The notes under the pieces were generated by a model. It did no database searches and was not told where the DNA came from. It saw only the letters and a program-made list of their open reading frames with translations. The position numbers were made by a program, and so were the translations under genes. 63,837 nucleotides of DNA from Anolis carolinensis (taxonomy: Eukaryota): NCBI RefSeq assembly GCF_035594765.1, contig NW_026943825.1:14190753-14254589 (forward strand), given 5' to 3'. Of this stretch, positions 1,396-60,906 are shown in pieces. Each line of letters starts with the position of its first letter. Position 1 is the first letter of the stretch.

Positions 1396-1848
1396 ATGTC
1401 TACAGAAGAAACCGACCAGCAGAAGAAGCAGAGCTCCACCTTGCCTCCGGCACTGAGCACGTTTTCTTCTGAACCCAACCCAGACCGAGAAGAACCTGCG
1501 CTGCCACCACCCAAAGAACCTGAAGTTCCACCAGAGGAGGAGAAGAAGGAGGAACCCAATGAAAAGAAAGAATCGCCCCCCCAGCCTGATACGGAACCAG
1601 ATCCAGAATCTGAAACATCAAAACCTGATATTTCATCTGGAAACGAGAGGGAGAAACCACCACCAACTGAACAGCAACCCGAAGAACCTCCAACCTTGCC
1701 TCGTGCACTAAGTCAAGAAACCCTGAAGGTAGACCGTTCTTCTCCTCTTGAAGTAACTGAAGATGTGTCCAACCAAGCTCCACCATCAGTTCCGGTGGAA
1801 GATAAGCAACAGCAGAGGAAACAACCTTCTACGTGGCCCTTGAAGTAG
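1396..1848 (+). CDS. EDEPK: Single-coding-exon EDC protein rich in Glu/Pro/Lys, 150 aa
   Basis: Splice acceptor (tctctcctAG, 1373-1374) lies 21 nt before ATG 1396. N-terminus QQKKQSSTLPP and C-terminus QQQRKQPSTWPLK are typical SEDC terminal motifs; no Cys. Symbol from recalled squamate EDC nomenclature and gene order. Exon 1 was not found and probably lies upstream of the window. Confidence 0.85.
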   Translation: MSTEETDQQKKQSSTLPPALSTFSSEPNPDREEPALPPPKEPEVPPEEEKKEEPNEKKESPPQPDTEPDPESETSKPDISSGNEREKPPPTEQQPEEPPTLPRALSQETLKVDRSSPLEVTEDVSNQAPPSVPVEDKQQQRKQPSTWPLK

Positions 1849-4481: not shown

Positions 4482-5017
4482 TAGATATGTCCAAAAAATT
4501 GTTTTGAATCGTATATCGGAATTATTTCGGATTGTTCTCGCTTTTTGATACGCATTCAGAGACATTGTCTCACAGTGCAACCAGCAATGTAATTCAAACC
4601 ATTGTTGGCCCATTCTCTAATTGTCTCTTAATGTTTCTTTAATTTTTTTCCCCAATTTTTTTAAAAAATATATATTTAAAAATATATTTTTTGTTTCTGC
4701 AACCTACCTTGAATGGGAGCTTAGCACAGCCTAATATGGCTGCCGCTCCTCAGCCAATCAGAAGCTTCCATGATGGACGCAAAGGTGGGGGTTAATGTCC
4801 TCTGCGTCCACATGGAAGATTGCCATACAAGCCTGGTGTGTAGCGATTGCGCATGCGTGTCCACCATTTTAGAAACATTTAGAATCATTACGAATTTTCG
4901 GAAATATCTGAAATTTTTGGGTGAAAAAATCGGAAATACTTTCTATATCGAAGCGCCAGCGCCCCCTATTTTAGAAATGAGAATTGAAACATTTCTTTCA
5001 TCGATCGGACATGCCTA
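4482..5017 (+). mobile_element. hAT MITE copy 2
   Basis: TIRs TAGATATGTCC / GGACATGCCTA; perfect 8-bp TSD ATGGACAT. Confidence 0.93.
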
Positions 5018-12180: not shown

Positions 12181-12965
12181 AATCCCCTTCGGGGTACAGA
12201 AAGGGGGGATAGAAATAGCGTAAATAAATAATAAATGTTGATAGAATATATGCATTTAAAAGTGATACGCACCAAATTTAGATGATACCTGAGAGATGAG
12301 CTGAATCCAAAAGTTTCTGGAGACCTTGTCCAAACCATAGGAGGAACTCTTCTGAAGGTTGAAGTTGGATTCAGGATTGAGAAAAACAGTAGGTGGGGGG
12401 ACCTATACACTTAGAATGTATTTTAGTTTTGTTTCTGTGACAATATTTAGAAGGAGCTAAGTAAGATTTCAACTAAGTGACTACTAGGCCATCCTTCTAA
12501 TCATTGGGCATGTTTACCAGGAGTTCATTGATCATTCTGGCTTGAGGAAGGTGTTATGATCTCAATATTGATTCAATGTAAACTATGGAGAAAAATGGAC
12601 CATGACTATTACTTCCTTCAATAATATTTAAAAAATATGGGATCAGACTAACAGACAAGTCTTTGAATCTTCATGGTTCCATCATTCTCCAACCTATTTG
12701 ATTTGGATGGGTAGATTTCAGTTTTCCAGAATTTACTTTAAAAGTGTTAAGCAAACAAGCTGATGTTGCACTGCATATCGTTTTAATGGACTTATTCTTG
12801 GTCAGCCACCTTGGGTCTCCTGTTAGGAGAAAAGCAGAATATTAATTAAGTGGACATTAATTTGTTTAATAAACTAATATGGTTGTTGAGGTTCCTCAAA
12901 TTGATGGTTTGACAATCTTTTGTTATCCATTCTCCCAGTATCCTCCGAAGTGGTTCCGAGTAAAG

Positions 12966-14861
12966 ATGTATTGTACTGACCAGCAGTGTAAGCAAGCATG
13001 CTTGCCCCCTCCTTCCTACCAGAAGATTGTTGGGACTCAAGATATATCAGGATGTGGACCACGATACAGATGCCAGAGAGGACAGTCCTACACACCCCAA
13101 TGTATATCACCATGCCCTCCCCAGCAGAGACACTCCTATGTACCAGTATCCCCACAGTCATGTTCTCCCCAGAGGCAACCTTCGTATCCTTTGCAACACC
13201 GTCCAACCTTTGTGCCTAAATGGATCCAACCATCATGTCCTCTGCAGCACCGTCCAGCCTTTGCACCAGACTGCATACAACCACCACGTCCTCTGCAATG
13301 CCGTTCATCCTTTTCACCCGACAGCATCCAACCAGTACCTCCACTGCAACGTCGTTCATCCTTTTCACCGGACACCATCCAACCAGTACCTCCTCTGCAA
13401 AGCCGTCCGTCCTTTGCACCTGACTGCATACAACCACCAAGCCCTATCCAGAACCAACCACTGCTTGCACCAGACCATCTACAACCAGCATCGCCTCCCC
13501 ACAGTAAACCATCATGTTCCTCAGATAGCATCCAACCATCTTATCCTCACCAGGGCCTTCCATCGATTGTCCCGGACCACATAGAAACCACATGTCCTCC
13601 CCAGCGTCAGCCACCATGTTCCTCAGATACCCTACAACCATCGTATCCTCCCCAGAGAAAGCCATCCTTTACACCATCATATCCTCCCCAGAGTCAGCCA
13701 CCATGTTCCTCAGATACCCTACAACCATCGTATCCTCCCCAGAGAAAGCCACCATGTTCCTCAGATACCCTACAACCATTGTATCCTCCTCAGAGAAGGC
13801 CATCCTTTACACCATCATATCCTCCCCAGAGTCAGCCACCATGTTCCTCAGATATACAACCATTGTATCCTCCCCAGAGAAAGCCATCCTTTACACCATC
13901 ATATCCTCCCCAGAGTCAGCCACCATGTTCCTCAGATACCCTACAACCATCATATCCTCCCCAGAGAAAGCCACCATGTTCCTCAGATACCCTACAACCA
14001 TTGTATCCTCCCCAGAGAAAACCATCTTATACACCACTATATCAACCCCAGCAAAAGCCACCATGTTCCTCAGAAACTCTACAACCATCGTATCCTCTCC
14101 AGAGACGGCCATCCTTTACACCATCATATCCTCCCCAGAGTCAGCCTCCATGTTCCTCAGATACCCTACAACCATCATATCCTCCCCAGAGAAGACCATC
14201 CTATACACCACCATGGATCCAGCCATGCTCTTCACAGGGCGAAGCATCCTATGAACCTCCTTGCCCAAGGCCCTCTTTTCCTGAAAGACCACTGTCCCCT
14301 CCACAGAGCATTCTTCAGCCATATGCTTCACCACAGAAGTACCAGTACACCCAGAAGCCATGTTGCCCCCCATGCAAGTCCGTGTGTTTTGGTTCCCAGC
14401 AGACACGCATGCCCCAAGCTGTGCAAACATGTGCTCCTAAAGGGAAATGTGTATCTCAAGGTTTTCTGGGATCTCAATGTTCACAAGGTGCCATCAAGGG
14501 AAACCAACAAGGTGTGATCAAAGGTGGACAACAGTATGGGAGTCAACAATGCATTAAGAAGGGAGGGCCAGTAGGTATAACCAAGAGTGTGCAACAGTGT
14601 GCATGCCAACCGGGTATCATGAAAGGAGGACTCTGTGGCCAGCAATATGGCAGCCAACCATTCATAACCAAGGGAGTTTCAGCAGGGAAAGCTATGGCAA
14701 TTCAACAGGGTGCGAGTCAAGCGTATGTGACAAAGGGAGGTCCAGGATTTGCAGTCAAGAGTAGTCCACAGTGGTCAAGTCAACCATGCATCTCAAAGGG
14801 AGGACCCATGTATGCTACAAAGGGCAGTCAAGGGTATATAAGAAAGGGGACTAAGTGGTAA
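12966..14861 (+). CDS. EDPSQ: Single-coding-exon EDC protein rich in Pro/Ser/Gln, 631 aa
   Basis: Acceptor ttctcccAG 12937-12938; ATG 12966; N-terminus MYCTDQQCKQACLPPP is the SPRR/SEDC motif; central 17-aa and 12-aa tandem repeats; KG-rich tail. Symbol from composition and recalled synteny. Confidence 0.9.
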   Translation: MYCTDQQCKQACLPPPSYQKIVGTQDISGCGPRYRCQRGQSYTPQCISPCPPQQRHSYVPVSPQSCSPQRQPSYPLQHRPTFVPKWIQPSCPLQHRPAFAPDCIQPPRPLQCRSSFSPDSIQPVPPLQRRSSFSPDTIQPVPPLQSRPSFAPDCIQPPSPIQNQPLLAPDHLQPASPPHSKPSCSSDSIQPSYPHQGLPSIVPDHIETTCPPQRQPPCSSDTLQPSYPPQRKPSFTPSYPPQSQPPCSSDTLQPSYPPQRKPPCSSDTLQPLYPPQRRPSFTPSYPPQSQPPCSSDIQPLYPPQRKPSFTPSYPPQSQPPCSSDTLQPSYPPQRKPPCSSDTLQPLYPPQRKPSYTPLYQPQQKPPCSSETLQPSYPLQRRPSFTPSYPPQSQPPCSSDTLQPSYPPQRRPSYTPPWIQPCSSQGEASYEPPCPRPSFPERPLSPPQSILQPYASPQKYQYTQKPCCPPCKSVCFGSQQTRMPQAVQTCAPKGKCVSQGFLGSQCSQGAIKGNQQGVIKGGQQYGSQQCIKKGGPVGITKSVQQCACQPGIMKGGLCGQQYGSQPFITKGVSAGKAMAIQQGASQAYVTKGGPGFAVKSSPQWSSQPCISKGGPMYATKGSQGYIRKGTKW

Positions 14862-14988
14862 ACACGGTGAAGATATCTGCCAGATATAATGTTGAGCTGG
14901 TCACTGGACTTACTAAACAAGTGGAGAAGACTGGGAACATCTTCATCAGTTCGTCCATAAACTTCTCCACAAATGCATTTGTAATTAC

Positions 14989-15531
14989 TAGACATGTCCA
15001 AACAATCGTTTTGAATCGTATATCGGAATTATTTCAGATTGTTCTCGCTTTTTGATACGCATTCCGAGACATTGTCTCACAGCGCAACCAGCAATGTAAT
15101 TCGAACCATTGATGGCCCATTCTCTAATTGTCTCTTAATGTTTCATTATTTCTGCCCCCCCCCATTTTTTTTAAAATATGTTTTTAAAAATATTTTTAAA
15201 AAAAATTGTTTCTGCAACCTACCTTGAATGGGAGCTTAGTGCAGCCTAACATGGCTGACGCTCCTCGGCCAATCAGAAGCTTCCACGATGGACGCAAAGG
15301 TGGGGGCTAACGTCCTCTGCGTCCACATGGAAGACTGCCATACAAGCCCGGTGTGTAGCGATTGCGCATGCGCGTCCGCCATTTTAGAAACATTTAGAAT
15401 CATTACGAATTTTCGGAAATATCCGAAATTTTGGGGTGAAAAAATCGGAAATACTTTCTATATCGAAGTGCCAGCGCCCCCTACTTTAGAAACGAGAATT
15501 GAAACTTTTTTTCATCGATCGGACATGCCTA
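14989..15531 (+). mobile_element. hAT MITE copy 3 (probably within the EDPSQ 3'UTR)
   Basis: TIRs TAGACATGTCC / GGACATGCCTA; 8-bp TSD GTAATTAC. Confidence 0.93.
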
Positions 15532-16006
15532 GTAATTACTATAATCAAGACTAAATCTAGGGACGAGATACAAGTCCAGAGGCTAAAGAGGAATTGGGTC
15601 CTCTTTGATATCTGGTTGACTTCAATTTTGTGAAGAAATTGAATCTTAACTTCCATTTTGAATGATGAACTAGGTCCTGGTTTTCTAGGTGTTTTGGACT
15701 TAATCTCTCAGAATTCCAGATCACTGGCCAAAGGAACAAAGGTTTCTGGGAACTGAAGTCCAAAACACCCAGAGAATTAATGTTTGGATATCACCGATTT
15801 AGATAATAGTCTTCAACACTGAACATCAACATTGACATGTAACCTGAGGTTTGCTTCAATGTTCACGTTAATGTATTAAACGCAAGTTGGGTTGGGTTGA
15901 GTTGGAAGGGTGATGTGGAGCAATTGCTAAGATAACATTTGGTCATTTCATCAGGATACTGCATAAATCTCCTTTAAACTATTTTATAGAATTACATATC
16001 TCACAA

Positions 16007-16056
<50 letters not shown>

Positions 16057-16585
16057 TATTACAGTCAGGCCTCCACATTTACAGGTTTCGCTTTGGCGGA
16101 CTTTATTATCGGCGGATCTGATGAATAAGTTCTCTTTAGTAATCTCGCAGTTCAACTTCCACTGGTTCAGCTTTGTTTCATGCACAAAATAAATAAAATA
16201 TTGTTATCAAATGACTCCCAGGCTACTGTGTATAAGCTGGTTACGAAACATAAATGAATTCTGTGTTGAGGCTTGGGTCCCATCTTCAAGATAACTCATG
16301 ATGCACGTATGTACAAACACTGTTACGACAGAATTTGAAAAAAATTAAAATCCTAAACACTTCTGTCCCAAACATTTCAGATAAGGGGGGAGACTCAAAA
16401 TGGATTTCTTGATTGAAAAAAGTCAAGAAAGCGAAAAGTCAATGCCCTTCTTTCCTTAACAGTATTCTGGTCATTCAATTGATCAATTTTTGTTGTGTCA
16501 GGCTGATAGAAATGTCACTGGTCTGACCAACATTTCCAAAATGGACGCCATTCATCTGAAGCTGGATTTCCAAGGCCAACTATCT

Positions 16586-17530
16586 GCTAGTTTCCATGAT
16601 TTTTCTCCTAATTCCCATGATTCTTCTCCTAGTTCCTACAAGTCTTCTCTAGTTCCTACAATTCTTCTTTAGTTCCTATGTTTCTTCTTGTGTCCACGGT
16701 TCTTCTCCTAGTTCCCATGATTTCTCTCCTAGTTCCCATAAGTCTTCTCTAGTTTTTATGATTCTTCTTGGCTCCTATGAGTCTTCAAGTGCCTACAATT
16801 CTTCTCCTGGTTCCTACAAGTCTTCTGTACTTACAATTCTTCTTTAGATCCTATGATTCTTCTCATGTCTACGATTCTTCTCCTAGTTCCCATGATTTCT
16901 CTCCTAGTTCCTATAAGTCTTCTCTAGTTCTTACAATTCTTCTTGGTTTCTGTGAGTCTTCAAGTGGCTATGATTCTTCTCCTAGTTACTACAAGTCTTA
17001 TCTAGTGCCTACAATTCCTTTTTAGTTCCTATGATTTTTCTCCTGTCTATGATTCTTCTCCCAGTTCCCATGATTCTCATCCTAGTTCCTTCAGGTTTTC
17101 TCTAGTTCTTACAATTCTTCTTGGTTTCTGTGAGTCTTCAAGTGCCTATGATTCTTCTCCTAGTTACTACAAGTCTTCTCTAGTTCCTACAATTCTTATT
17201 TAGTTCCTATGATTTTTCTCCTGTTTACGATTCTTCTCCCAGTTCCCATGATTCTCCTCCTAGTTCCTTCAGGTTTTTTCTAGTTCTTACAATTCTTCTT
17301 GGTTTCTGTGAGTCTTCAAGTGCCTATGATTCTTCTCCTAGTTACTACCAGTCTTCTCTAGTTCCTACAATTCGTCTTTAGCTCCTATGATTTTTCTCCT
17401 GTCTACGATTCTTCTCCCAGTTCCTACAAGTCTTCTCTAGTTCCTATTATTCTCCTCCTAGTCCCTATTCTTCTTCTTCTAATTCCTACCATTCTTCTCT
17501 AGTTCCTATGATTCTTCTCCCAGTCTCTTC
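16586..17530. repeat. Pyrimidine-rich minisatellite, ~20-bp subunits in a ~177-bp higher-order repeat
   Basis: TTCTTCTC(C)TAGTTCC subunits; marker GAGTCTTCAAGT at ~16779, 16954, 17133, 17310. Confidence 0.9.
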
Positions 17531-21794: not shown

Positions 21795-21897
21795 GTATAG
21801 TAGAATAATACAAGTGTTCCTTCACTTATCGCGGGGGTTATTTTCCAGGACCACCCGCAATAAGTGAAAATCCACAAAGTAGGGACACTATATTTAT

Positions 21898-22440
21898 TAG
21901 ACATGTCCAAAAAATAGTTTTGAATCGTATATCTGAATTATTTTGGATTGTTCTCGCTTTTTGATACGCATTCTGAGACCTTGTCTCACAGCGCAACCAG
22001 CAATGTAATTCGAACCATTGTTGGCCCATTCTCTAATTGTCTCATAATGTCTCTTAATTCCCCCCCCCCCAATTTTTAAAATATATTTTTAAAAATATTT
22101 TAAATTTTTTTGTTTGTTTCTGCAACCTACTTTGAATGGGAGCTTAGCACAGCCTAACATGGCTGCCACTCCCCGACCAATCAGAAGCTTCCACGATGGA
22201 CGCAAAGGTGGGGGCTAACATCCTCTGCGTCCACATGGAAGATTGCCATACAAGCCTGGTGTGTAGCGACTGCGCATGCGCATCCGCCATTTTAGAAACA
22301 TTTAGAATCATTACGAATTTTCAGAAATATCCGAAATTTTTGGGTGAAAAAATCGGAAATACTTTCTATATCGAAGTGCCAGCGCGCCCTACATTAGAAA
22401 CGAGAATTGAAACATTTTTTTCATCGATCAGACATGCCTA
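21898..22440 (+). mobile_element. hAT MITE copy 4, nested in a Tigger-like element
   Basis: 8-bp TSD ATATTTAT; host element begins ~21810 (GTGTTCCTTCACTTATCGCGGGGGTTA). Confidence 0.92.
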
Positions 22441-27610: not shown

Positions 27611-28606
27611 ATGCCATACTATAGATATTACTCTAAACCACTCGGTCCTCCTCTATCTCCCTTTGTCAAGAAAAGGCTGCCCAAATATGGGTCGCAATAC
27701 ATCCCATTCTATGGGCCACGGTATTTTTCATCCAGGACTCTTCCACTGTATGAGAAAGGTCTTTTTTCTTCCAAGACCCTTCCGTTGTATCAGAGAGGCC
27801 TTTATATTCCACCGTATCATCAATCTGGAGGGGCTGGTTATCAACCACGGGGTCTAAACCCCCGCCCAGAATCACATGGAACCAAACTCCCTCAAAGAAA
27901 TCTTGCCAGAAACCCAACACAGCCACATGTAAACATATATCAGCGGCATTTGCTCCAAAGTCCATATAGCGGCATGACCAAAGACCGCCATGGAACCATC
28001 ACAAAGGGTTCAGTTCCCGGTGCACCTCGAGCTCCGTTGCCTCGCATGACCAAAGGCCCGGTATTATATTCTCCCAAAGATTTGGAGCCACACTTGCCCA
28101 AAGCCCCTCTACCTCGTGTGACCAAAGGCCCAGTACTGTATTCCCCCAGGGATTTGGAACCCCATCTCCCCAAAAGCCCGCCACCCCACATTCCCAAAAG
28201 CCCAACAAAGCATTCAGCCAAGAGAATACCGCCAGTTGTGCCCACTGACTCACAACTCAATGTAACAAAGGCTCAGCAGCATCACACATCAAAGAGCATG
28301 CTGTCACGTGCCACCAAAGGCTCGCGTACAATTGCGAGCAAAGTCCCGCGATTCAACCTACTGAACTTCTCTAGATCCTTACGGAAAAAAGCTTCTCGAC
28401 GCAATCGTGCGAAAACCTCCCAACCCAGTTTGGTGAAGGGTTCACAACCCTCTCTAGTCAGGGACTCTCGGGGTTCCTTAGCAAAGAGCTCTCAACCCAA
28501 CCTGGTCCATACGGCCACATGCCCAGATCTCAAAAAACTCTCCAGTAATGTGAAAGTCTCCAAGACAGGGAAGAAATATTGCTCAGCAGCCAAGTGGCCT
28601 TTCTGA
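27611..28606 (+). CDS. EDYM2: Single-coding-exon EDC protein with Tyr-rich N-terminus, basic, 331 aa
   Basis: Branch-point-like CTAAC ~27567, acceptor AG 27587-27588, ATG 27611; VKKRLPKYGSQYIP and C-terminal KKYCSAAKWPF; adjacent to CBP cluster; AATAAA 29278-29283. Symbol from recalled nomenclature. Confidence 0.85.
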   Translation: MPYYRYYSKPLGPPLSPFVKKRLPKYGSQYIPFYGPRYFSSRTLPLYEKGLFSSKTLPLYQRGLYIPPYHQSGGAGYQPRGLNPRPESHGTKLPQRNLARNPTQPHVNIYQRHLLQSPYSGMTKDRHGTITKGSVPGAPRAPLPRMTKGPVLYSPKDLEPHLPKAPLPRVTKGPVLYSPRDLEPHLPKSPPPHIPKSPTKHSAKRIPPVVPTDSQLNVTKAQQHHTSKSMLSRATKGSRTIASKVPRFNLLNFSRSLRKKASRRNRAKTSQPSLVKGSQPSLVRDSRGSLAKSSQPNLVHTATCPDLKKLSSNVKVSKTGKKYCSAAKWPF

Positions 28607-35171: not shown

Positions 35172-35486
35172 CTAACATCTCCAGCCACATCTACCTCCCC
35201 AGCCACCATAACCACATCGGCCACCATACCCGCAGCCTCCATAGCTGCCATAACCGCAACCACCCCAGCCGCCATAACCAAAGCCTCCCCAGCCACCATA
35301 ACCACAGCCACCATAGCCGCAGGGTGTTGTAGTGTATACAGCACAAGGTGTTGTATCACAGTGCAGGATGGCCCCAGGCATTGTCACACAGTAGGTTGGA
35401 GGCTGGACGCAGACCTCTGATGGAGGGCCTTGTGATTCGCAGGCGACATTGCAGCCGAAGCCACAGTTTCCCCAACCAAAAGTCAT
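35172..35486 (-). CDS. Corneous beta-protein (beta-keratin), type A, 104 aa
   Basis: Core CESQGPPSEVCVQPPTYCVTMPGAILHC; G/Y/W/C tail; acceptor at 35508-35509; ATTAAA at 34504-34509 (minus). Confidence 0.95.
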   Translation of the reverse strand: MTFGWGNCGFGCNVACESQGPPSEVCVQPPTYCVTMPGAILHCDTTPCAVYTTTPCGYGGCGYGGWGGFGYGGWGGCGYGSYGGCGYGGRCGYGGWGGRCGWRC

Positions 35487-37298: not shown

Positions 37299-37828
37299 TA
37301 GGCATGTCTGATCAATGAAAAAAATGTTTCAATTCTCGTTTCTAAAGTAGGGGGCGCTGCGCTTCGATATAGAAAGTATTTCTGATTTTTTTCTGATATT
37401 TCCGAAAATTCGTAATGATTCTAAATGTTTCTAAAATGGCGGACGCGCATGCGCAATCGCCAAAAAAAAAAAAGGAACCGGGGGGAGGGGGACTTTTACA
37501 GGGCTCTCCTGCCCTTATTTCTTGAGCTATCCTCATCAAATTTGCAATGCCCTTGCAAGTTGTGCAAAGATACTTTGAAAACTTTGAAGGTAGGTTGCAG
37601 AAACAAAAAAAAAATTAAAAAAAATATTTTTAAAAAAATATATTACAATTTTTTTGGGAGAAAATATTAACAAAACATTAAGAGACAGTTAGAGAATGGG
37701 CCAACAATGGTTCGAATTACATTGCTGGTTGCACTTTGAGACAATGTCTTGGAATGCGTATCAAAAAGCGAGAACAATCTGAAATAAATCCGATATACGA
37801 TTCAAAACGATTTTTTTGGACATGTCTA
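37299..37828 (-). mobile_element. hAT MITE copy 5
   Basis: 8-bp TSD GTTACTAC; same TIRs, reverse orientation. Confidence 0.93.
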
Positions 37829-38819
37829 GTTACTACTTCCCTCAAGTAAAGTCAACTTGTTGCCAGTTGCCTTGTTCTGCCTTAAACCGTAGTTAGATGT
37901 GCTCCACAATAGAACATCTCTTTGGATACTGTGGGATTGATATTGTCCCATCTTGTTGATGGGGCAGCACTGACTTATCAGCCATCACCTTTGGGATTAT
38001 TGGTTTTTAATGTCCTTTTTCACGAGAGGTAGTCACAGGAAGCATATTTGGATTAAAAATGGTTGAAAATAGGGTTTGAAGATGGAACCTGAACTAATGA
38101 GTTCTTTCAAGTATGGGACTTCAGCTAGGCAAAATTTATCCTATAGACTTGTCGAGTATCATCTTTATGTTATCATGATGAAACCATCCCAAGGTCCTGT
38201 AGAGTGGTGGGCCTGAGAAGGAGACACAACTAGCAATATTTGGGACTTCCCTTTGAATGGTCATGACCCCAATTTGGGGCAAAGAACACATGAGCATCCT
38301 TCTCCTCTAGTGCTCGCAACTTCAAACAATACCATGACCTCATGAAAATAACATCTGAGTTTAATAACACCTGGTTCTCCTGATAGGAAGACTTGGAAAG
38401 GTGTCACAGGGCTTTTTACAAAGGCTTCACAAGCACCTATTAAGGTTTAATATGCATCAAGGGTGGTTGTGTACGTGGGTATACACTGGACAATGTCCTT
38501 GCTGATGGGTTGGATCAACAGCAGAGATAGACCCGCATACGTCAATGTACCTCCTCTGTGATAACTGGGCCACCATTTCTTTCTTCTCCAAAACAGAAGG
38601 CATTCCATCTGAAATTAAAGGAAGCATGGGCTTGGTTGTTTTATTTGTCCCTAATAATTGCTGATGGGTTCTTACATGGCCATTAATTCTGCATCTCCAG
38701 CTTTGCCAAGCGTTATTGCCTTTTCTATTCTATCAGACTATTATTTTGATAGGTGTCTGGGCTTCTCAATGGGACATTCTGCTGACCAAGGTGAGGACAC
38801 AAAGATGGACTACATAGAC

Positions 38820-42357: not shown

Positions 42358-42729
42358 ATGACTTTCGGTTGGGGAAACTGTGGCTACGGCTGTAATGTTG
42401 CCTGCGAATCGCAATGTCCTCCCTCCCACGTCTACATCCAACCTCCCTGCTATGCCGTGACCATTCCTGGGCCTGTGATGCACTGTGATACCGAACCTTG
42501 TGCTGCATCCAGCCATACACCTTGTGGCTACGGGAGCTGCGGCTATGGTGGCTATGGTGGTTATGGTGGTTATGGAGGCTATGGCGGTTATGGTGGTTAT
42601 GGCGGCTATGGCGGCTGGGGTTACGGTGGCCGGGGATGTGGTTATGGTGGCTGGGGAGGCTGCGGTTATGGCCATTGTGGCTACGGTGGCTGGGGAAATA
42701 GATGTGGGTATGGTGGCTGGGGATATTAA
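42358..42729 (+). CDS. Corneous beta-protein, type B, 123 aa
   Basis: Core CESQCPPSHVYIQPPCYAVTIPGPVMHC; (YGG)8 tail; acceptor 42334-42335; ATTAAA 43475-43480. Confidence 0.96.
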   Translation: MTFGWGNCGYGCNVACESQCPPSHVYIQPPCYAVTIPGPVMHCDTEPCAASSHTPCGYGSCGYGGYGGYGGYGGYGGYGGYGGYGGWGYGGRGCGYGGWGGCGYGHCGYGGWGNRCGYGGWGY

Positions 42730-47923: not shown

Positions 47924-49299
47924 GGGACAAACCAAACAACCAAGAGAATATGATAATTTCAAATAGGAATGATTTGTGATGCCCCCATCTTTGTGTTGCT
48001 AGAAATACTGGTTGTACAACATGCAACTGTGGCTAAAATACTCTTTTCCGTTCTGCTTTTAAATGCATAGGAACCCCAAAAATGTACAGTGCTTTGTCAT
48101 GCTTCCCCTTTATCAAAGTACAGAGGGCACATCTACATTGACCACTTTGGTCATTGTGAAACTGGAAAAAAAAAAGGAAGACATTTCGTCATTTGGAAAA
48201 TTACATGTGAAGTCCTGGAATTGTTTCCAGCCTGGATGGTACTTATATGCAACTCAGGGGCTGTTCTTAAACCAGTATAACAACCACTTTCAAAGTAAGT
48301 ACCACACAGTTCAACAGGGAATAGCACTTTTAAACCAGGAACAGAATTTTTTTCAAATTTTGTTACATAGTGTATCTCTGGACCTTCCCAAGTTTCCCTT
48401 TGATCTGCTCTAGTAGGATTCATTTGAAGGTCTTCTGACACCCGCCAGCTTGTTTTAAGCCCGCTTACACAGCCCTGAAGATGCCTGATATTTATTTACA
48501 TAGAAATGTGCCCTGAAGATATAATTATACCTGTGAAAAGTGACTCAGTGATGGAACAATGATAAAGCCGATAGACTTGCATCTCTTCTCGCTTCAGAAC
48601 AGCTTCAGAAGAGCCCAGTGTTCAGGGTGTTCCTTCAAAAGCACACAAAGTCGGGGAGATGTTTAGTACTATTCTTTCCCCTGTTTAATCGACCCAGAAA
48701 AATATCTGCCATACATGTAGTGGCAGTAAGATTACTAAGGGTGTATCTTGGCAGGGCTGAAAAGATTATTTATATCATGGAGCCATGGCAATACAAGAGG
48801 TGTTAAACTGCATTCATTCTCCAATATAGACCCACCAAAAGGCTTTTCTCTGTAGGCAGGCCTTTGGCGTTGAAACTCCTATGGCAGAAGGATTCTTCAT
48901 AGAGTGAGCTTTTTTAAATATATAATTTTCACATGTTTTAAAGGTGTTTCCACCTTTGGGTCTATTTGTATATACAGTAGAGTCTCACTTATCCAAGCTA
49001 AACGGGCCGGCAGAAGCTTGGATAAGAAAATATCTTGGATAATAAGGAGGGATTAAGGAAAAGCCTATTAAACATCAAATTCGGCTATGATTTTACAAAT
49101 TAAGCACCAAAACATGATTTACAACAAATCAACAGAAACATGTTTGCAAGTGCAGAGGGAAAATGCGTGTGCGCGCGCACACACACATAGATGTCTAGAT
49201 AGATATAAACATTGATAAATAGGGCTTGCAAATATTGCAGGAGGAAAATGCACATAGAGAGGATTTGCAAAGGTTTCAGGGAGAAATACACATGTGAAA

Positions 49300-51816: not shown

Positions 51817-52095
51817 CTAATAGCCCCAGCCACCATATCCACCATATCCCCATCCCCGGCCACCATAACCCCAGCCGCCATAGCCGCCATAGCCGCCATA
51901 GCCGCCATAACCACAACCCCCGTAGCCGCAAGGTGTTCTGCTGGACGCAGCACAAGGTTCGGTATCACAGTGCATCACGGGCCCAGGAATAGTCACGGCG
52001 TAGCAGGGAGGCTGGATGTAGATGTGAGAGGGAGGACATTGCGATTCACAGGCGACGTTGCAACCGAAGCCACCGTTTCCCCAACCAAAAGTCAT
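51817..52095 (-). CDS. Corneous beta-protein, type B', 92 aa
   Basis: Core CESQCPPSHIYIQPPCYAVTIPGPVMHC; (YGG)4; acceptor 52117-52118; AATAAA 51090-51095 (minus). Confidence 0.96.
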   Translation of the reverse strand: MTFGWGNGGFGCNVACESQCPPSHIYIQPPCYAVTIPGPVMHCDTEPCAASSRTPCGYGGCGYGGYGGYGGYGGWGYGGRGWGYGGYGGWGY

Positions 52096-60636: not shown

Positions 60637-60906
60637 ATGACTTTCGGCTGGGGAAGCTGCAATGTTGCCTGCGAATCACAGTGCCCTCCATCTGATGTCT
60701 GTGTCCAGCCTCCAACCTACTGCGTGACCATGCCTGGGGCCATTCTGCACTGTGATACAACACCTTGCGCTGTGTACTCCACAACACCCTGTGGCTACAA
60801 TAGGGGCTGTGGTTATGGTGGTTGGGGAGGCTATGGCCTTGGTGGCTGGGGAGGCTGGGGCAGAGGCTGGGGAGGTAGATGCGGCTATGGTTATGGCGGA
60901 TTTTAG
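60637..60906 (+). CDS. Corneous beta-protein, type A', 89 aa
   Basis: Core CESQCPPSDVCVQPPTYCVTMPGAILHC; acceptor 60614-60615; ATTAAA 61548-61553. Confidence 0.95.
   Translation: MTFGWGSCNVACESQCPPSDVCVQPPTYCVTMPGAILHCDTTPCAVYSTTPCGYNRGCGYGGWGGYGLGGWGGWGRGWGGRCGYGYGGF

What the first reader, a model, noticed from the sequence alone, without database searches (positions are those of the whole stretch)
14855..14916. Fossil EDYM2-type C-terminus in the EDPSQ 3'UTR
Seen: just past the stop, one frame reads VNTVKISA. After a frameshift, 14887-14916 reads TAA TGT TGA GCT GGT CAC TGG ACT TAC TAA (*C*AGHWTY*). This aligns codon for codon, including the stop, with the EDYM2 end NVKVSKTGKK-YCSAAKWPF*. 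Both internal stops are one substitution from Tyr and Ser. Inference: EDPSQ once ended in the same YCSAxxW motif and lost it by frameshift, gaining a new KGTKW end.
Basis: partly seen in the sequence, partly recalled or inferred. Interest (0 to 1): 0.7.

Follow-up and report, generated by a model that had tools for sequence, protein, structure and literature searches.

The report
Lost protein tail fossilised in lizard
A skin-protein gene of the green anole stops about 21 amino acids early, and the decayed code for the tail it lost, which other reptiles still use, can be read just behind the stop; this is an ordinary kind of event but seems not to have been described for this gene.

Summary
The fossil is real. 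Behind the stop of anole EDPSQ (CDS 12966-14861) lie VKISA (14867-14881) and *C*AGHWTY* (14887-14916). The last ten codons alone are not beyond chance across the window. Both blocks together are the best match after EDYM2 among 127,616 positions, and 0 of 5000 local shuffles match as well. All 3 non-anole EDPSQ sequences I could see (python, wall lizard, worm lizard) end in this tail, as do crocodilian EDP1 and chicken EDQrep. It is EDPSQ's own old tail, shared with EDYM2 by paralogy.

Correction: KGTKW is not a frameshifted peptide. The stop most simply sits in the old frame at the Lys of a C-K-T-Q linker, with both indels (-1, -7) behind it. Which lesion came first is open. Four runs show no indel; the fossil stop reads TTA in 3 of 4. 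The 631-codon frame is intact, so the protein is probably truncated, not dead; expression is unconfirmed. The motif is published (PMC5366951, Fig. S7); I did not find the anole loss in print. Modest interest.

The parts
12966..14861 (+). EDPSQ coding sequence, 631 aa, ending YIRKGTKW; single coding exon with splice acceptor AG at 12937-12938 (exon starts 12939)
   Evidence: start, end, 1896-nt length and 27-nt exon-to-ATG offset agree with the published A. carolinensis EDPSQ (compared by eye)
14850..14861 (+). Present end T-K-W-stop, in the ancestral frame; W and the stop lie at the positions of Cys and Lys of the C-K-T-Q linker
   Evidence: 1 and 1 substitutions; python has the same spacing from RKG
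14862..14866 (+). Thr codon plus a 2-nt remnant of the Gln codon (1-nt deletion)
   Evidence: best deletion site is in the last codon; 809 of 63,676 window 11-mers (1.3%) fit C-K-T-Q as well
14867..14881 (+). Fossil block 1, VKISA (orthologues VKISS, LKVSS, VKIST)
   Evidence: (4 of 5 codons at distance 0)
14882..14886 (+). 5 nt left of a 4-codon linker (7-nt deletion)
   Evidence: one substitution suffices for each of 4 linker types tested
14887..14916 (+). Fossil block 2, *C*AGHWTY*, remnant of YCSAxKWPF-stop; last codon TAA or TTA (A14915T)
14917..14940 (+). Old 3'UTR start, 13 of 24 bases identical to the bases after the EDYM2 stop (weak sign of paralogy beyond the CDS; no separate control run)
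14981..15539 (.). Non-autonomous DNA transposon (14989-15531) with terminal inverted repeats and an 8-bp target duplication at 14981-14988 and 15532-15539, inserted in the putative 3'UTR
   Evidence: four related copies in the window; the label hAT-like MITE is recalled, not from a call
27611..28606 (+). EDYM2 coding sequence, intact paralogue carrying the same tail (28547-28606)
   Evidence: published Ac_EDYM2

Best explanation
14862-14916 is the decayed coding sequence of EDPSQ's own ancestral C-terminal tail of about 21-22 residues, now in the 3'UTR (shown by orthologue comparison). In the anole lineage the frame ends at an in-frame stop at the Lys of the C-K-T-Q linker (most parsimonious alignment). 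The released tail then took a 1-nt and a 7-nt deletion, two nonsense and about four missense changes, and a segregating change in its old stop; that this is neutral decay is inferred. The rest of the gene stayed under coding constraint (inferred). It most likely makes a truncated Pro/Ser/Gln-rich cornification protein. That protein is probably still cross-linked through its N-terminal QQCKQ motif and internal Lys/Gln/Cys, but lacks the terminal Lys/Gln/Cys/Trp-bearing module (function inferred from the family, not tested). The intact tail on neighbouring EDYM2 may have made the loss tolerable (speculative).
For: 3 of 3 visible non-anole EDPSQ sequences carry the tail; crocodilian EDP1 and chicken EDQrep carry it too. 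Junction parsimony: 2 substitutions plus 1 deletion after the stop is best at every indel cost above 1, and the chance of such a fit is about 1.3%. The bases are confirmed in 4 of 4 runs, with the fossil stop variable. Body of the gene: 0 stops in 631 codons against 8 and 12 in the other frames; 12 of 12 repeat spacings are multiples of 3; the coding SNP T14474C is synonymous. The 55-nt tail, by contrast, has 2 indels and 2 stops.
Against: No iguanian or second anole EDPSQ was obtained (searches found none), so the date and the order of lesions are untested. Orthologues were seen only as protein text in supplements and compared by eye; their codons are unknown. At indel cost 1 or less, a path with one inserted base and two deletions ties or just wins. 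The worm lizard lacks C-K-T-Q, so the linker is variable. Anole expression is unconfirmed: the RT-PCR column reads 'no' and exon 1 is 'n.d.'. In-register unequal crossover can keep repeat spacings at multiples of 3 without selection.
Confidence: 0.8

Rival explanations
1. Frameshift first: an indel inactivated the tail and the present stop came with it or later. Variants are a one-base insertion in the Cys codon giving Trp-stop at once, the 1-nt deletion in the Gln codon giving a stop one codon later, or the 7-nt deletion. This concerns order only and is compatible with the fossil being real.
For: The insertion path ties at indel cost 1 and explains Trp and stop in one event. After the 1-nt deletion the old frame meets TGA at 14868-14870. 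Any of the three lesions could be first.
Against: The insertion path needs 3 indels and loses at indel cost 1.5 or more. A single deletion placed upstream of the stop costs 9 to 12 substitutions against 6. The 7-nt deletion alone would read on into a long unrelated frame.
Confidence: 0.5
2. Anole EDPSQ is a dead or dying gene and the tail loss is part of pseudogenisation.
For: RT-PCR column 'no' and exon 1 not determined. The gene looks dispensable elsewhere: no cobra EDPSQ among the 6 mentions in the snake supplement, and not identified in tuatara. A transposon sits in the 3'UTR.
Against: The 631-codon frame is open, the splice acceptor is intact, and the 203 non-repeat C-terminal codons have no stop against 7 and 6 in the other frames. 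The damage is confined to the 55 nt after the stop. Not all genes were tested by PCR in that study.
Confidence: 0.1
3. Chance resemblance or assembly error.
For: The ten-codon match alone is equalled elsewhere in the window. Two non-coding places score 8 and 9 against 7.
Against: The match lies where orthologues have the tail; 0 of 5000 shuffles reach it; there are no indels in 4 of 4 runs.
Confidence: 0.02
4. The stretch was copied from EDYM2 by gene conversion or duplication rather than inherited.
For: The paralogue lies 13.7 kb away on the same strand, and similarity runs 24 nt past the stop.
Against: Identity is only 60% (36/60). The fossil shares Gly with wall lizard EDPSQ and the Thr-Gln linker with python and wall lizard EDPSQ, neither of which EDYM2 has.
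Confidence: 0.03

Closest known systems
EDPSQ of python, wall lizard and worm lizard (supplements of PMC5366951, PMC11431283, PMC11704414)
   Same: N-terminal QQCKQxCLPPP motif, TKG/SKG repeats, the RKG segment before the tail, and the tail motif seen here as a fossil.
   Different: They translate the tail. The anole stops about 21-22 residues early and is much longer (631 aa; wall lizard CDS 807 nt) through a Pro/Ser/Gln repeat expansion.
C-terminal motif shared by python EDPSQ, python and anole EDYM2 and chicken EDQrep (PMC5366951, Suppl. Fig. S7)
   Same: This is the motif in the fossil. The figure text lists anole EDPSQ in the N-terminal panel but not among the 4 C-terminal rows.
   Different: The passages I saw do not mention an anole truncation or a 3'UTR remnant. 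Figure images and the full legend were not seen.
Crocodilian EDP1 (PMC5827346 supplement) and chicken EDQrep (PMC4245816 supplement)
   Same: QQCKQ-like or QQQC start and a VKISS..KKYCSAS.W end. Chicken EDQrep follows EDYM2 in the gene list, as EDPSQ neighbours EDYM2 here.
   Different: Different central repeats. Orthology to EDPSQ is my inference from motif and position, not tested.
General SEDC C-terminal motif QQxKQPSQWPxQxxK (PMC4245816, section 8)
   Same: Terminal Trp-Pro core with Lys/Gln cross-linking residues.
   Different: A different consensus. The paper notes that only some SEDC proteins carry that motif, so lacking a terminal motif is not unusual.
Lineage-specific C-terminal truncation with a coding remnant in the 3'UTR (general phenomenon; recalled, search returned nothing)
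   Same: Stop gain or frameshift near the end, followed by decay of the released codons.
   Different: Nothing in mechanism; only the gene and lineage are new.

Membership tests
SEDC gene EDPSQ | Single coding exon behind a splice acceptor | tested here: met
   AG at 12937-12938, ATG at 12966, uninterrupted CDS; same offsets as the published table
SEDC gene EDPSQ | Non-coding exon 1 and skin expression | tested here: inconclusive
   Published 'n.d.' and 'no'. No run on record as RNA was listed and only contigs were laid.
SEDC gene EDPSQ | Position in the EDC next to EDYM2 and the beta-protein cluster | tested here: met
   EDYM2 at 27611-28606 and beta-protein-like ORFs from 35172; naming the latter as beta-proteins is recalled
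SEDC gene EDPSQ | N-terminal QQCKQ motif and Pro/Ser/Gln-rich repeats | tested here: met
Proteins with the KYCSAxKWP(F/W) terminus | Motif translated at the C-terminus | tested here: not met
   The frame stops at 14861; the motif is present only as an untranslated remnant
Coding fossil in a 3'UTR | Orthologues translate the homologous segment | tested here: met
   3 of 3 visible orthologues, compared by eye
Coding fossil in a 3'UTR | Segment lies within the mature transcript | not testable with these tools
   Expected because it directly follows the stop; first ATTAAA at 15875 and AATAAA at 16188; the contigs laid cannot show transcript ends
Pseudogene | Disabling lesions in the body of the gene | tested here: not met
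   0 stops in 631 codons; 12 of 12 repeat spacings in frame
Frameshift-derived new C-terminus | Terminal residues read in a non-ancestral frame | tested here: not met
   The best alignment keeps T-K-W-stop in the old frame; only Trp-stop could come from an insertion, in a costlier path

The most novel reading that the evidence does not exclude
Motif turnover. After losing a tail apparently kept across sauropsids, anole EDPSQ rebuilt a minimal copy of its core about 21 residues upstream: the new end T-K-W repeats the T-K-W of several EDYM2 ends. Each of K and W is one substitution from the Gln and Cys that the wall lizard has there. If selection fixed these changes, a terminal Lys-Trp is the working unit of this cornification motif, and the anole gene is a natural experiment for it.
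Probability: 0.15. Interest if true: 0.55.

Novelty: new variant of a known kind. Interest (0 to 1): 0.3.

Why it matters
The fossil shows that the published anole EDPSQ, a reference protein in reptile EDC work, is a derived truncated form, and it ties that gene to the EDYM2 / EDP1 / EDQrep group by a motif it no longer translates. It offers a natural deletion of a conserved terminal motif whose role in cornification is assumed rather than shown, and a rare-event marker (one stop, two indels, one transposon insertion) that could be mapped across iguanian lizards. It does not reveal a new mechanism.

Tried and rejected
Orthologue searches that found no EDPSQ: the search for homologous proteins with residues 480-660 (0 of 34 candidates at E<=10, lengths 363-1155 only); phmmer on representatives (0 hits); a tail profile (11 hits among 7996 scored, all the same EDYM2 proteins; MAFFT had placed the tails inside EDPSQ, so the profile was mostly EDYM2 tail); metagenome contigs (0 of 200 pattern matches confirmed). 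No genome is held for the window. No RNA holder was listed; X14 and X18 are only guessed to be RNA, so they say nothing on expression. Earlier scan findings: none in 3 look-ups. The runner-up motif hits at 48240, 48305 and 41416 have no coding context and were rejected as chance. A worm-lizard or crocodilian type linker with a 2-nt insertion fits worse (6 to 7 substitutions in 15 nt). Rescue by splicing was considered by eye and rejected: GT at 14858 to AG at 14883 is about 26 nt, too short for a spliceosomal intron (recalled limit). BLASTP of EDPSQ against an EDYM2 homologue gave only weak TKG-repeat similarity (E 2e-4 pairwise). The tuatara paper's supplement has 5 'EDPSQ' mentions of which I saw 2, and PDF spacing can hide motifs, so a gecko EDPSQ there may have been missed. 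File 1 of the PMC4245816 supplements was not searched. The turtle supplement was not seen. No structure or complex prediction was run, because the protein is low-complexity and lacks an alignment.

Full report
Setting. The window is part of a lizard epidermal differentiation complex. The ORF at 27611-28606 is 91% identical to an Anolis sagrei protein and by eye matches the published A. carolinensis EDYM2. The ORF read from 12966 to 14861 (631 aa) matches the published A. carolinensis EDPSQ in start, end (KGTKW), CDS length of 1896 nt and the 27-nt distance from exon start to ATG.

Observation. Taken alone the ten-codon match is weak: 19 of 30 bases, equalled by 5 other places among 127,616, and a BLOSUM62 score beaten by 3 unrelated places. 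With its context it is strong. Over 60 nt the ungapped identity to the EDYM2 end is 36, against a next best of 31; that length was chosen after the fact. A two-block profile from 9 of 11 EDYM2 homologues needs 7 substitutions here, the best in the window after EDYM2 itself, with runners-up at 8 and 9. None of 5000 dinucleotide shuffles of 14862-14981 reaches 7. Contigs from 4 of 24 listed runs, from up to four studies, span 14300-14980 with no indel. Three of the 4 carry a synonymous T14474C and A14915T, which turns the fossil stop into TTA.

Orthologues decide the question. All 3 non-anole EDPSQ sequences I could see end in the motif: python in YCSASNNWPW, wall lizard in YCSAGKWPF and worm lizard in YCSADDWLW, each preceded by a VKIS-like block four codons upstream. 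Alligator and saltwater crocodile EDP1 and chicken EDQrep end the same way. If these are orthologues, which I infer from motifs and gene order and did not test, the tail is as old as sauropsids. The fossil has Gly where wall lizard EDPSQ has Gly and EDYM2 does not, so it is EDPSQ's own tail. These comparisons are by eye on protein text. Four database searches returned no EDPSQ, so no iguanian outgroup was seen.

How the tail was lost. Python and wall lizard have C-K-T-Q just before the VKIS block, and python has six residues between RKG and that block. The anole has 17 nt there. Enumerating synonymous codons, the cheapest single-deletion alignment puts the missing base in the Gln codon, after the stop (6 substitutions, against 9 to 12 for a deletion upstream of the stop). 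Trp is then one change from Cys, the stop one change from Lys, and Thr is unchanged. About 1.3% of window 11-mers fit C-K-T-Q that well. A second deletion of 7 nt leaves 5 nt of the four-codon linker. So KGTKW is the old frame cut short, and the VNT reading is incidental. An alternative path, one inserted base giving Trp-stop plus two later deletions, ties only when indels cost no more than substitutions. The order of stop, -1 and -7 cannot be read from one species. I put stop first and any indel first at roughly even odds.

Is the gene alive? The frame has no stop in 631 codons, against 8 and 12 in the other frames, and 12 of 12 repeat spacings are multiples of three (36, 48, 51, 87 nt). The 55 nt behind the stop carry two indels and two stops. 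Constraint on the body therefore outlasted the tail (inference). Against this, the 2014 table lists RT-PCR 'no' and exon 1 'n.d.', no cobra EDPSQ appears among the 6 mentions in the snake supplement, and none was identified in tuatara. I obtained no evidence on expression. The amount of decay suggests the loss is not recent, but I could not date it.

Likely working. SEDC proteins are cross-linked through Gln, Lys and Cys, which are concentrated in terminal motifs (PMC4245816 section 8; PMC7393497 and PMC4760078 passages). The anole protein most likely still serves as a cornification substrate through its N-terminal motif and internal sites, without the terminal module. This is inferred from the family and was not tested. 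The new end T-K-W echoes the T-K-W in several EDYM2 ends. That could be chance, a by-product of the insertion path, or compensation; I give compensation 0.15.

What is known. Suppl. Fig. S7 of PMC5366951 already aligns the C-termini of python EDPSQ, python and anole EDYM2 and chicken EDQrep; anole EDPSQ appears only in the N-terminal panel. I found no mention of the truncation or the remnant in searches, or in the passages read. What I saw of each paper: PMC5366951, main-text passages and supplement passages; PMC7393497, passages and supplement passages; PMC4245816, passages, section 8 and passages of supplement file 2, with file 1 not searched; PMC11431283, passages and supplement passages; PMC11704414, passages and supplement passages; PMC12821399, passages; PMC4760078, passages only; PMC5827346, supplement passages only. 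Figure images and most subscription papers are outside the library and could hold the point.

Verdict. It is a new instance of an ordinary process in a known gene family. Interest 0.3.

Noticed in passing
window 14981-15539: Non-autonomous DNA transposon with an 8-bp palindromic target duplication and terminal inverted repeats, starting 72 nt behind the fossil stop; related copies at about 116-201, 4482-4785, 21891-22208 and 37584-37836.
   Followed up: partly
window 14915: The fossil stop is variable: TAA in the window and run X1, TTA in runs X9, X14 and X18.
   Followed up: yes
window 13587-14214: Repeat expansion of 36, 48, 51 and 87-nt units makes anole EDPSQ more than twice as long as the python and wall lizard proteins; a second frame is open for 220 codons here.
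   Followed up: partly
protein P0004 (Podarcis raffonei model): The database gene model joins an EDPSQ-type start (QQCKQ motif, as in wall lizard EDPSQ) to the EDYM2 body, probably a fused annotation; it fits the same gene order and strand as here.
   Followed up: no
window 1396-1848: Glu/Pro/Lys-rich ORF ending in the general SEDC motif (QPSTWPLK), probably EDEPK; the name is inferred from composition and gene order.
   Followed up: no
window 16590-17200: Degenerate tandem array of CT-rich units downstream of EDPSQ, not examined.
   Followed up: no
supplements: No cobra EDPSQ is listed in the snake supplement, and tuatara EDYM2 has a degenerate form of the tail; the motif seems to erode in more than one lineage.
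   Followed up: no
window 35172-60906: Several Gly/Tyr/Cys-rich beta-protein-like ORFs starting MTFGWG on both strands (35172-35486 -, 42358-42729 +, 51817-52095 -, 60637-60906 +).
   Followed up: no
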